A stretch of DNA of 64,000 nt from Escherichia coli (lineage in GTDB: Bacteria > Pseudomonadota > Gammaproteobacteria > Enterobacterales > Enterobacteriaceae): NCBI RefSeq assembly GCF_003334385.1, contig NZ_QOWN01000008.1. One strand, 5' to 3'. How positions within the stretch are numbered: the stretch's first letter is position 1; every line of letters begins with the position of its first letter. Of the stretch, positions 61,901 to 64,000 are shown piece after piece. Made by a program: the position numbers.

Positions 61901-64000
61901 TTTCCATTACCTCTTTGCCTTCCGCTGTTTTGGTATTTAACTCAATAGAACGTTTGTTACTGTTAAGCATGGTGAAGTAAAGCGCATCGATATCAGGAAT
62001 ATCTCGCAGCTGGTGACGCGTTACGTCACCAACGCCGGGACGTTCAATTTTAATAACGTCAGCGCCAAACCAGGCCAGCATTTGAGTACAAGATGGGCCA
62101 GATTGCACACCGGTGAAATCGAGAACTTTAATTCCTTGAAGTGGAGTTGACATAGCAATACCTATTAGTTAATTAAATATGTGTTAATTTAGCGTTTATT
62201 TAAGGCGTAATATCTTCTATAAATAACCCGCAAAATATCGTCGTAGCTGCACTCGATATTTTTAAAATCCTGTATCAAGTGCTGAAAATCATTTCATCGC
62301 CACTTCCAATTCCTTTCTGCATGGTAAGTAGTGAGGACGAAAAGAAGAATATGATAAATATTGATTCGTGGTAATCAGAGAGAGTCGCGACATTTGTGAT
62401 GTTATTCTTACAACTGTAAGAAGCGCCGGTGATTTACAAGCAAGGGTATGATTACGCTTTTTAAAGCGTACCATAAAACATAACATAATAAATGATTTGT
62501 GATGACACGGGATTATTGCGGTTTACTTTGAGGAATATAAAATGCGAGTTTATAGCACCGCGAGCGCCAAATAATTTTATGACCACAACCTGTCGTATTG
62601 TGGTCATAAAAAATTGTCGGCTGGAGGGAGTTAAATCCTTTACCTCAATATACTGCCTGTCAGCATTAGTTCACAAACAGTGCTTCGCTATCGACGATGA
62701 TTCCATCTTCCGCACCTTTAAGCGCCAGGTTTGCCTCGTAGTATTGCTTTTTATCAAGCAGTTTCTGCGCATCAGCAAGTGCATTACGAGTCTGTTTAAG
62801 TGGCATCAGATATTGGTTTTCCATTACGCCAACACCGGCCAGGCGAAGCTCTTCCATTGCGCCCTTTTTATCCCCTTTCGCCATTTTTTCATTGGCAATT
62901 TTTATCGCGGCTTCTTTTTCGGGAGTTGCTACATAACTCTCAGAAATTCCGACAGATGCATTAATGACAATATATTGGTCATCATTGAGATTGGTCTTTT
63001 TACCTGGCTTAGCGAACTTTGCCCATTCGGTACTGTCATCTGACAGCAAAGCGGAAGCTTCATTGGTCAGTTCTTTTGCCTTTTCTGGATCGCCATGAAA
63101 CAGAGCCAGGCGCGCTACCTGCACGTCACGCATCGCATATAAACCTTGTTCAGAGATACGCTCTGCTGCCGCTGCCGTTTTCTGGGTTTGCTGAACTTGC
63201 TGAGTTTGCTGTTGTGCCGCTACCGGAGCATTATCAGCAGCCCATACAGTTGAAGATGCCAGAATTGCTGTGACCATCGTGGCCATAATTAAACGTTTCA
63301 TACTTACCTCATTCTTTAACAGTTTTAGAAAACGCCGCCATCATATTGGGTGAGCATGAAATGAGAAATCAGAGAGCAACGGTCATTTTGAAAGGGTTAT
63401 CTTACAGTTGTAGTTATTATCGCAAGAAGTATTTTAGTCTTACAATTGTAGGAATATGCTTCCTGTCGCAGAGAACTATTCTTATATACCACAAAGAGAT
63501 GTCATTTATTATATCGATGTAAATACTGATTAATTAAATGTAAATACAGCCATAACATCGTAGGTTCTCAGTGAACCATTTTCAGGATAACTTTCTATGA
63601 AAGTAAACTTAATACTTTTCAGCTTATTTTTATTGGTCTCTATTATGGCATGCAATGTTTTTGCATTTTCCATTTCGGGTGGTGGAAGTGAGAGGAGCTA
63701 TAAAGAGACTGAAAAAACATCAGCGATGACGACCACACACTCTACAAAACTTCAGCCATCACAGGCGATTTTGTTTAAGATGAGAGAAGATGCGCCACCA
63801 TTAAACCTCACAGAAGAAATGCCGCCCCCTTTTCCGACAAAGGCGAATTATCTTATTCATCCTGTGCGATAGCGTCTTTCACATGGCAGGTGAACAATCA
63901 TGTCTGATGCTGATGTGAACACCTGATCCTACCCACGTAATATGGACACAGGCCTAAGCGAGGTTCTTGTTTTCAAATTGTTCCGGACTGAGGCCGCCAC

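What the first reader, a model, noticed from the sequence alone, without database searches (positions are those of the whole stretch)
63399..63454. Two tandem EvgA-box-like repeats in the yfdX/ypdI divergent region
TCTTACAGTTGTAG and TCTTACAATTGTAGGAA are spaced 38 bp apart about 100-150 bp upstream of yfdX. Tandem boxes suggest cooperative EvgA binding, and the site could also influence the divergent ypdI gene.
Basis: partly seen in the sequence, partly recalled or inferred. Interest (0 to 1): 0.35.

Follow-up and report, generated by a model that had tools for sequence, protein, structure and literature searches.

The report
Two EvgA boxes, two divergent promoters
The two repeats are real copies of the binding site for the E. 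coli acid-response regulator EvgA, but rather than acting as a cooperative pair on yfdX, each most likely drives one of two back-to-back promoters, yfdX on one side and the small lipoprotein gene ypdI on the other.

Summary
TCTTACARTTGTAG occurs exactly twice in 64 kb, at 63400-63413 and 63438-63451, 38 bp start to start. Both copies lie inside 18-bp matches to the EvgA box TTCYTACANNTGTARGAA: 63399-63416 has 3 mismatches and 63437-63454 has 1.

An EvgA inverted repeat upstream of yfdX is already published (Masuda & Church 2003, cited in PMC3720670). What seems not to be described is the layout.

- **Fixed spacing.** In all 21 EvgA-type promoters examined (7 in E. coli, 14 orthologous ones in six other lineages), the box is followed, toward the regulated gene, by exactly 25 nt and then TC[CT][TGC][AC]T.
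- **Position of the box.** The ydeP leader used in a published study starts 178 nt before the ATG, which puts the box centre at -74.5.
- **Two promoters.** The weaker, yfdX-proximal box fits this layout toward yfdX and is the box conserved across genera. The stronger, distal box fits it toward ypdI.
- **Expression.** ypdI is co-induced with the EvgA regulon in three published datasets.
- **Natural alleles.** E. coli alleles with one box (strain A10) and three boxes (414 of 5426 genomes) keep both outer layouts.

Cooperative binding is not supported: 38 bp is about 3.6 helical turns, and the box number varies. This is a refinement of known regulation plus a probable new regulon member. Nothing was tested experimentally.

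The parts
63399..63416 (-). yfdX-proximal EvgA box. In yfdX sense it reads TAACTACAACTGTAAGAT, with 3 mismatches to the consensus. Its predicted centre is -74.5 from the yfdX start site.
   Evidence: A box occupies the same aligned position in Yersinia, L013, L020, Buttiauxella, Dryocola and K. pneumoniae.
63437..63454 (+). Distal EvgA box, GTCTTACAATTGTAGGAA, with 1 mismatch. Its predicted centre is about -74 from a ypdI-directed start site. It is probably the published 'yfdX' EvgA inverted repeat.
   Evidence: In a divergent Escherichia lineage (L031) the only change is G63437 to T, giving a perfect consensus.
63368..63373 (-). TCTGAT element exactly 25 nt after the proximal box, at predicted -40 to -35 of the yfdX promoter.
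   Evidence: It is conserved as TCTGAT or TCTTAT in all orthologous yfdX promoters, and changes only to TCCGAT in L031.
63340..63367 (-). Predicted yfdX core promoter: TTCTCA, 16 nt, TATGAT. The predicted start site is near 63333.
   Evidence: The promoter scan found it. The -10 column is conserved across seven lineages. The start site is predicted, not measured.
63480..63489 (+). TCTTATATAC element exactly 25 nt after the distal box, on the ypdI side.
   Evidence: It is invariant in 11 E. coli-lineage alleles. It is homologous to the hdeD-side element TCTTATATAA of L013 and TCTTATTTAC of Klebsiella, Buttiauxella and Dryocola.
63507..63512 (+). Predicted ypdI -10 hexamer, TATTAT. The predicted start site is about 63517-63520.
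   Evidence: Its distance from the TCTTAT element (27 nt) falls within the 27-29 nt seen in the other promoters. It is invariant in 11 alleles. It is not measured, and the -35 is poor.
63400..63437 (.). 38-bp unit (one box plus spacer) whose copy number varies among E. coli strains: 1, 2 or 3 copies.
   Evidence: three boxes in AR_0118; the junction is present in 414 of 5426 genomes; one box in strain A10.
62666..63301 (-). yfdX, a periplasmic YfdX-family protein.
63597..63872 (+). ypdI, a 91-aa lipoprotein. Named homologs come only from E. coli and Shigella.
62374..62422 (-). frc (yfdW) EvgA box, a perfect palindrome at 62405-62422, followed by 25 nt and TCTGAT at 62374-62379. This is the same layout as the yfdX promoter.
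52412..52429 (-). emrK/evgA intergenic EvgA box. Toward emrK it is followed by 25 nt and TCCTCT.

Best explanation
The yfdX/ypdI intergenic region holds two back-to-back EvgA-dependent promoters, each with its own 18-bp EvgA box centred about 74 bp upstream of its start site. The weaker box (63399-63416) is the activating site for yfdX. The stronger box (63437-63454) is the activating site for a ypdI-directed promoter that descends from the hdeD promoter found opposite yfdX in related genera. Phosphorylated EvgA, produced at mildly acidic pH, would bind each palindrome as a dimer and recruit RNA polymerase to a core promoter with a weak -35. That promoter carries a conserved TC(T/C)(T/G/C)(A/C)T element at -40 to -35. 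What is shown: the boxes, the rigid 25-nt spacing, the cross-genus conservation, the allele series and the co-induction of ypdI. What is inferred: EvgA occupancy of each box, the two start sites, and that ypdI induction is direct.
For: 1. Layout. In 21 of 21 promoters the box is followed toward the gene by exactly 25 nt and then TCTGAT, TCTTAT, TCCTAT or TCCTCT. These are E. coli yfdX, ypdI, frc, emrK, safA, ydeP and yegR, plus the yfdX, frc and hdeD promoters of Yersinia, L013, L020, Buttiauxella, Dryocola and K. pneumoniae. The element's background frequency is 0.0023 per position per strand, or 0.0004 for TCT[TG]AT. A composite scan of the 64-kb window returns only ypdI (+), yfdX (-), frc (-) and emrK (-), plus one hit with a 5-mismatch box inside a coding region.
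2. Direction. Each yfdX/ypdI box has the element in one direction only, proximal toward yfdX and distal toward ypdI.
3. Calibration. The ydeP leader RNA used in PMC11210196 runs from -178 relative to the start codon. That is exactly box centre minus 74.5 in K-12.
4. Conservation. The aligned position of the proximal box carries a palindromic box in every genus, followed by CTCTGAT or CTCTTAT and a T-A-x-x-x-T -10. In Buttiauxella, Dryocola and L013 the outermost boxes each sit 25 nt from their own promoter (yfdX or hdeD). In K. pneumoniae and L020 one box serves both sides.
5. Within the E. coli lineage, 5 of 56 proposed functional positions vary against 60 of 239 other intergenic positions (Fisher one-sided p = 0.0046). 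The central NN of the boxes varies at 3 of 4 positions.
6. Alleles. The three-box form is in 414 of 5426 genomes and strain A10 has one box. Both keep the 25-nt spacing on both sides.
7. ypdI expression.
   - It is up by log2 2.75 (P 0.013) in the evgS S600I constitutive mutant (PMC4283999 Table S4).
   - RNA is about 11 rpkm at pH 5.8, against 1.1 at pH 7.6 and 2.9 at pH 4.4 (PMC10746267 Table S3).
   - It rises 5.5-fold with glutathione, together with yfdX, yegR, ydeO, emrK, frc and oxc (PMC5811628).
Against: No start site is available for yfdX or ypdI; two TSS supplements gave nothing. The predicted ypdI promoter has a very poor -35 and was not listed by the consensus promoter scan. ypdI induction is much weaker than that of yfdX (log2 2.75 against 6.97) and could be indirect, because the evgS-constitutive list contains many indirect genes. 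The proximal box has 3 mismatches and a score that shuffled sequence reaches. The orthologous promoters are not independent samples, and yfdX/frc and safA/ydeP look like paralogous promoter pairs, so the 21 of 21 amounts to about five independent lineages. The evgA leader in PMC11210196 starts at -124, which puts the shared emrK/evgA box near -109.5 of that promoter. EvgA may therefore also act from further upstream, and the distal box at about -112.5 could contribute to yfdX as well. The primary papers (Masuda & Church 2002 and 2003; Itou 2009) are not held, so I cannot verify which box or boxes they reported.
Confidence: 0.6

Rival explanations
1. One reading: two EvgA dimers bind the tandem boxes cooperatively, and together they activate yfdX. 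Any effect on ypdI is secondary.
For: Both boxes match the EvgA consensus and are conserved in E. coli and in Yersinia vastinensis at the same 38-bp spacing. yfdX is among the most strongly EvgS-induced genes, at log2 6.97. From general knowledge, the EvgA homolog BvgA is known to bind promoters as arrays of dimers. L013 carries three boxes 21-23 bp apart. The evgA promoter appears to use a box near -109.5, so a distal site can be in range.
Against: 38 bp is about 3.6 helical turns, which places the dimers on different faces, unlike the roughly 22-bp arrays. frc reaches log2 8.37 with a single box. Three Yersinia loci keep only the proximal box. K. pneumoniae and L020 have one box, and E. coli strain A10 has one box. 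The distal box carries the 25-nt-plus-element layout only toward ypdI.
Confidence: 0.2
2. Only one box is functional. The other is a by-product of slipped-strand or unequal-crossover duplication of a 38-bp unit and does nothing.
For: The unit is demonstrably unstable. Three-box alleles occur in 414 of 5426 genomes, a one-box allele exists, and the repeats are 13 of 14 identical. The proximal box scores only 13.9 bits.
Against: The weak box is the one at the cross-genus conserved position. The strong box has its own conserved downstream promoter elements, homologous to hdeD promoters. Both boxes are kept while the 20-bp spacer between them varies at 8 of 20 positions. ypdI is co-induced with the regulon.
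Confidence: 0.13
3. The repeats are chance similarity, or sites for a different regulator such as RcsB, which controls yfdX in Klebsiella. They are not EvgA sites.
For: A 12-of-14 match to the RcsB motif used in PMC6394985 overlaps the right arm of the distal box at 63449-63462.
Against: That RcsB match is at background level: 70 such matches in the window against 41 expected by chance. The EvgA consensus matches are far above chance and sit only at known EvgA-regulated operons. yfdX neighbours evgSA-type genes in Buttiauxella, Dryocola and Klebsiella, and its promoters carry the same box.
Confidence: 0.03

Closest known systems
EvgA box of the E. coli EvgS/EvgA regulon: an 18-bp inverted repeat upstream of emrK/evgA, ydeP, safA(b1500)-ydeO, yegR, yfdX and frc(yfdW). 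Source: Masuda & Church 2003, as cited in PMC3720670.
   Same: Same consensus, same regulon and same operon. PMC3720670 states that inverted repeats bound by EvgA lie upstream of yfdX and of yfdWUVE. The distal box is most likely that published site.
   Different: Here there are two boxes. The weaker one occupies the canonical position for yfdX, and the stronger one points its promoter layout at ypdI. As far as I know, ypdI is not listed as an EvgA target. The exact 25-nt rule and the -40 element could not be found in the papers available here.
The emrK/evgA divergent region, where one EvgA box lies between two divergent operons.
   Same: A palindromic box in a divergent intergenic region regulates genes on both sides. 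K. pneumoniae, L020 and E. coli strain A10 have exactly this single-box form at yfdX.
   Different: In the common E. coli allele the box is duplicated, so each promoter has its own copy. At emrK/evgA only the emrK side follows the 25-nt layout.
BvgA-activated promoters of Bordetella (fha, ptx), with arrays of BvgA dimers from a primary inverted repeat down to the -35. This comparison is from general knowledge and was not checked here.
   Same: BvgA is the closest characterised homolog of EvgA. Both use an upstream palindromic primary site and a weak -35. Multiple sites per promoter are known for BvgA.
   Different: BvgA dimers are described as abutting at about 22 bp on one face of the DNA. 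The E. coli yfdX boxes are 38 bp apart and face opposite promoters. Only L013 (21-23 bp), Buttiauxella (22 bp) and Dryocola (18 bp) approach that geometry.
SafA (B1500), a small membrane protein induced by EvgA that connects EvgS/EvgA to PhoQ/PhoP.
   Same: If ypdI is a direct EvgA target, it would be a second small envelope protein induced by EvgA that can switch on another signalling system. YpdI overproduction activates Rcs and colanic acid synthesis and induces mucoidy without RcsF (10.1101/2024.08.29.610257).
   Different: There is no evidence that YpdI acts at native levels or contacts an Rcs component. Its induction is modest.

Membership tests
EvgA box (EvgA-binding inverted repeat) | Match to the 18-bp consensus TTCYTACA-NN-TGTARGAA | tested here: met
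   The distal box has 1 mismatch and the proximal box 3, with the core YTACA-NN-TGTAR intact in both. Weight-matrix scores are 19.1 and 13.9 bits, against 9.0 for the next best real site in the window.
EvgA box (EvgA-binding inverted repeat) | Lies upstream of a gene induced by EvgS/EvgA activation | tested here: met
   From published data, yfdX is up log2 6.97 and ypdI log2 2.75 in the evgS S600I mutant. Both are induced at pH 5.8.
EvgA box (EvgA-binding inverted repeat) | Same position relative to the core promoter as in other EvgA-activated promoters | tested here: met
   The box, 25 nt and TCYNMT layout holds in 21 of 21 promoters. It is calibrated at ydeP, where the box centre is at -74.5. 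Start sites for yfdX and ypdI are predicted only.
EvgA box (EvgA-binding inverted repeat) | Bound by phosphorylated EvgA in vitro or in vivo | not testable with these tools
   This needs a footprint, EMSA or ChIP. No EvgA ChIP or SELEX data were found.
EvgA box (EvgA-binding inverted repeat) | Required for EvgA-dependent induction of the adjacent gene | not testable with these tools
   This needs box mutations in reporter fusions.
Cooperative tandem response-regulator array (BvgA-like) | Adjacent dimer sites on one helical face, about 21-22 bp centre to centre | tested here: not met
   The E. coli spacing is 38 bp, about 3.6 turns. The box number varies from 1 to 3 among strains.
Cooperative tandem response-regulator array (BvgA-like) | All sites serve a single promoter | tested here: not met
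   The downstream promoter element is found in opposite directions for the two boxes.
Two-component connector proteins (SafA-like), for YpdI | Small envelope protein whose gene is directly activated by one two-component system | tested here: inconclusive
   The box and promoter layout and the co-induction support it. Whether the induction is direct has not been shown.
Two-component connector proteins (SafA-like), for YpdI | The protein modulates a second signalling system at physiological levels | not testable with these tools
   Only overproduction phenotypes are reported.

The most novel reading that the evidence does not exclude
ypdI is a direct member of the EvgA regulon, driven by the distal box from a promoter inherited from an ancestral hdeD. 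YpdI would then act as a connector that passes the mild-acid signal from EvgS/EvgA to the Rcs phosphorelay. RcsB is needed with GadE for glutamate-dependent acid resistance, and Rcs controls colanic acid capsule. This would parallel the EvgA-to-SafA-to-PhoQ/PhoP link. The 1-, 2- and 3-box alleles would be natural variants of this wiring.
Probability: 0.2. Interest if true: 0.65.

Novelty: new member of a known kind. Interest (0 to 1): 0.4.

Why it matters
EvgS/EvgA starts the acid-resistance cascade of E. coli, and its list of direct targets is short. Three things would follow if this reading is right.

- **The yfdX site would be reassigned.** The annotated yfdX site is probably the better-matching distal box. 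It would become the activator site of ypdI, and the overlooked weaker box would be the yfdX site.
- **ypdI would gain a regulator and a condition.** ypdI is a poorly understood gene whose overexpression turns on the Rcs capsule pathway. This suggests a testable EvgAS-to-Rcs link.
- **A sequence rule for EvgA promoters.** The rule is the box, then 25 nt, then TCYNMT, with the box centre at -74.5. It can be used to find direct EvgA or KvhA targets in E. coli, Klebsiella and relatives.

About 8% of E. coli genomes carry a third box, which provides natural material for testing the model.

Tried and rejected
- **Primary EvgA papers.** Masuda & Church 2002 and 2003 and Ma et al. 2004 are not in the library. 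I could not confirm which yfdX box was published.
- **Searches for the box in text.** Searches for 'EvgA box', the consensus strings, and EvgA ChIP or SELEX data gave nothing useful.
- **Start-site data.** The Cappable-seq and SMRT-Cappable-seq supplements contain no yfdX or ypdI entry in the stored text.
- **RcsB site overlapping the distal box.** The match at 63449-63462 is at background frequency, so I rejected it.
- **ypdI as a remnant of hdeD.** There is no protein or DNA similarity beyond the promoter segment.
- **Composite hit at 41612.** It has a 5-mismatch box inside a 448-aa ORF and is judged to be chance.
- **Locus of heat resistance yfdX copies.** The paper found no EvgA dependence at alkaline pH and gives no site data.
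- **Genome-contig scan with YfdX.** It returned only 9 loci. Further species had to be reached through protein clusters.

Full report
**Where this is.** The window is an E. coli chromosome segment collinear with K-12 around evgAS. The gene order is emrYK, evgAS, yfdE-yfdV-oxc-frc, yfdX and ypdI. yfdX lies at 62666-63301 on the minus strand, ypdI at 63597-63872 on the plus strand and frc at 60903-62153 on the minus strand. In this region, window coordinate plus 2,431,101 gives the NC_000913.3 coordinate. The window is not K-12 itself, because an IS3 end follows ypdI.

**The observation.** TCTTACARTTGTAG occurs exactly twice in 64 kb, at 63400-63413 and 63438-63451, with 0 expected by chance. 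Each copy sits inside an 18-bp match to the EvgA consensus TTCYTACANNTGTARGAA. The match at 63399-63416 has 3 mismatches and the match at 63437-63454 has 1.
- The only other matches with up to 3 mismatches in the window are the emrK/evgA box at 52412 and a perfect palindrome upstream of frc at 62405. That is 4 found against 0.62 expected.
- K-12 has the same four boxes. safA, ydeP and yegR have one each.
- By score alone the proximal box (13.9 bits) is within reach of shuffled sequence. Its significance comes from where it lies.

**What is already known.** PMC3720670 (Fig. 2 legend and text) cites Masuda & Church 2003 for inverted repeats bound by EvgA upstream of yfdX and of yfdWUVE. EvgA control of yfdX through an EvgA box is therefore published. 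The primary papers are not held, so I could not check whether one box or two were reported. From memory, which I could not verify, databases list one site per promoter.

**Phylogenetic footprint.** I collected yfdX loci from several sources:
- a divergent E. coli;
- four Yersinia loci, where YfdX is 82-84% identical and is followed by frc and oxc;
- an unnamed enterobacterial contig, L013, with hdeB-hdeD divergent from yfdX-frc;
- Klebsiella sp. RIT-PI-d (L020);
- Buttiauxella, Dryocola and K. pneumoniae.

In Buttiauxella, Dryocola and K. pneumoniae, yfdX lies beside evgS/evgA-type genes and divergent from hdeD-hdeB.

In the alignment of upstream regions, every lineage has a palindromic box at the position of the E. 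coli proximal box. Examples are CTACAnnTGTAAG, CTGACAnnTGTCAG and CCGACAnnTGTAGG. Each box is followed by a conserved CTCTGAT or CTCTTAT and then a -10 of the form T-A-x-x-x-T. The predicted E. coli promoter TTCTCA-16-TATGAT (63367 down to 63340) aligns with these.

The distal box is less constant:
- It is present in E. coli.
- It is weaker in Y. vastinensis, though still 38 bp from the proximal box.
- It is lost in three other Yersinia loci, where homology breaks about 10 bp upstream of the proximal box.
- Other genera have upstream boxes at other spacings: 18 bp in Dryocola, 22 bp in Buttiauxella, and 21 and 23 bp in L013.

**A rigid promoter layout.** I anchored all promoters on the box and oriented them toward the gene. 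In 21 of 21, the 18-bp box is followed by exactly 25 nt and then TCTGAT, TCTTAT, TCCTAT or TCCTCT.
- The 21 comprise E. coli yfdX (from the proximal box), frc, emrK, safA, ydeP and yegR, the orthologous yfdX, frc and hdeD promoters, and the plus-strand side of the distal box. That side reads GTCTTACAATTGTAGGAA, 25 nt, TCTTATATAC (63480), 17 nt, TATTAT (63507-63512), pointing at ypdI.
- The element occurs at 0.0023 per position per strand in the window, or 0.0004 for TCT[TG]AT.
- A composite scan of the window (box with up to 5 mismatches, N25, element) returns only ypdI (+), yfdX (-), frc (-) and emrK (-), plus one weak hit inside a coding region.
- Neither yfdX/ypdI box has the element in the other direction.
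- The promoters are not all independent. The orthologs share descent, and yfdX/frc and safA/ydeP look paralogous. That leaves about five lineages, which is still far beyond chance.

**Calibration.** PMC11210196 used a ydeP leader running from -178 relative to the start codon. In K-12 the ydeP box centre is 252.5 bp upstream of the ATG, so the box centre is at -74.5 from that 5' end.
- Applying the same geometry puts the element at about -40 to -35 and the -10 at about -12.
- It also predicts start sites at 63333 for yfdX, about 63517-63520 for ypdI, and 62339 for frc. None of these is measured.
- The evgA leader in the same paper starts at -124, which places the shared box near -109.5 of that promoter. 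EvgA may therefore also act from farther away.

**Origin of the ypdI promoter.** In K. pneumoniae and L020, a single palindrome lies 25 nt from the element on both sides, yfdX and hdeD. In Buttiauxella, Dryocola and L013, the outer boxes each lie 25 nt from their own promoter. The E. coli ypdI-side segment TCTTATATACCACAAAGAG resembles the L013 hdeD-side segment TCTTATATAACACCAGGG. The ypdI promoter therefore looks like the old hdeD promoter now facing a different gene. ypdI shows no similarity to hdeD, and its named homologs come only from E. coli and Shigella.

**Variation within E. coli.** The intergenic region is present in 5412 of 5426 complete genomes at 90-100% identity.
- In 11 diverse alleles, 5 of 56 proposed functional positions vary, against 60 of 239 other positions (Fisher one-sided p = 0.0046). 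The functional positions are both boxes without their central NN, both elements and both -10 hexamers.
- The central NN of the boxes varies at 3 of 4 positions, and the inter-box spacer at 8 of 20.
- In the most divergent lineage (L031, 87% identical), the only change in the distal box turns it into a perfect consensus.
- The 38-bp unit is copy-number polymorphic. A three-box allele is in 414 of 5426 genomes, and strain A10 has a one-box allele. In all of these alleles the two outer box-to-promoter units are intact.

**Expression of ypdI.**
- ypdI is up by log2 2.75 (P 0.013) in the evgS S600I constitutive mutant, in which yfdX is up 6.97 and frc 8.37 (PMC4283999 Table S4). The authors state that they searched only the upstream regions of the more strongly induced genes for EvgA sites.
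- In PMC10746267 Table S3, ypdI RNA is 10.5, 9.7 and 13.1 rpkm at pH 5.8. It is 0.96, 1.17 and 1.25 at pH 7.6, and 3.2, 3.4 and 2.0 at pH 4.4. A peak at mild acidity is what EvgS activation would give.
- Under glutathione, ypdI rises 5.5-fold together with yfdX, yegR, ydeO, emrK, frc and oxc (PMC5811628).
- These data fit direct activation but do not prove it.

**Verdict.** The repeats are real EvgA boxes. The best-supported reading, at about 0.6, is two divergent EvgA-dependent promoters, each with its own box at -74.5. In that reading the inconspicuous proximal box serves yfdX and the better box serves ypdI.

Cooperative tandem activation of yfdX (about 0.2) is disfavoured by four things: the 38-bp phasing, single-box relatives and alleles, the strong induction of frc from one box, and the opposite polarity of the promoter elements. 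It is not excluded. A non-functional duplicate (about 0.13) and chance or a different regulator (about 0.03) are less likely.

The core fact, an EvgA box at yfdX, is known. The second box, the promoter rule, the allele series and ypdI as a probable target are modest additions. If YpdI, whose overproduction activates Rcs, acts at native levels, it could link EvgAS to Rcs. That is speculative.

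Noticed in passing
window 63400-63437; L022 (NZ_CP020048.1), L030 (NZ_CP195143.1): The 38-bp box unit varies in copy number among E. 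coli strains. The three-box junction is present in 414 of 5426 complete genomes, with up to 3 junction hits in one genome. Strain A10 has a one-box allele, with a 257-bp intergenic region instead of 295 bp.
   Followed up: yes
window 63930-64000: An IS3-family terminal sequence starts just after ypdI, where K-12 MG1655 has yfdY. The closest genomes annotate an IS3 transposase there. One ETEC genome (H11) has an IS5/IS1182 element inside the yfdX/ypdI intergenic region.
   Followed up: partly
window 62575-62611 (minus strand): A terminator-like hairpin of 15 pairs followed by a T-run lies between yfdX and the frc EvgA box. This suggests yfdX and frc-oxc-yfdVE are separate EvgA-driven transcription units rather than one yfdXWUVE operon.
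   Followed up: no
window 63517-63547: ATGTAAATAC is repeated directly, 21 bp apart, at and just after the predicted ypdI start site. An AT-rich palindrome also lies at 63502-63529. Their function is unknown, and they could mark another regulator site or an alternative ypdI promoter.
   Followed up: no
window 63416-63445 (minus strand): A promoter-like match, TTGTAA-18-GATAAT with a TG extended -10, overlaps both boxes. The TTGCGATAAT segment next to the proximal box is conserved in E. coli and Yersinia and partly in L013. If it is active, EvgA binding would occlude it.
   Followed up: no
window 63311-63328: A weak third box-like copy, TTTAACAGTTTTAG (79% identical, 5 mismatches to the 18-mer), lies in the predicted yfdX leader. 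It is probably chance.
   Followed up: no
L005, L014, L016, L017 (Yersinia vastinensis, Y. alsatica and relatives): These Yersinia carry a yfdX-frc-oxc-yfdV cluster with 82-84% identical YfdX and an alignable promoter that includes EvgA boxes. It lies next to ars genes, IS elements or an integrase, which suggests horizontal transfer. I did not determine whether these genomes encode EvgAS.
   Followed up: partly
window 63160-63230 (yfdX codons for [13 protein letters not shown]): YfdX proteins in E. coli range from about 192 to 222 aa at 91-99% identity. This is consistent with length variation in the glutamine-rich stretch after the signal peptide.
   Followed up: no
L008, L018, L019 (Buttiauxella, Dryocola, K. 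pneumoniae): The conserved cluster is hdeB-hdeD divergent from yfdX, followed by evgS- and evgA-like genes, with gadB also adjacent to hdeB in Buttiauxella and Dryocola. EvgA-type boxes of the variant form TCTGACAnnTGTCAGA lie in the divergent region. This suggests the EvgA homolog controls hdeD and yfdX directly there.
   Followed up: partly
window 41612-41629: This is the only other composite hit (box with 5 mismatches, N25, TCTTAT) in the window. It lies inside a 448-aa ORF and is judged to be chance.
   Followed up: yes
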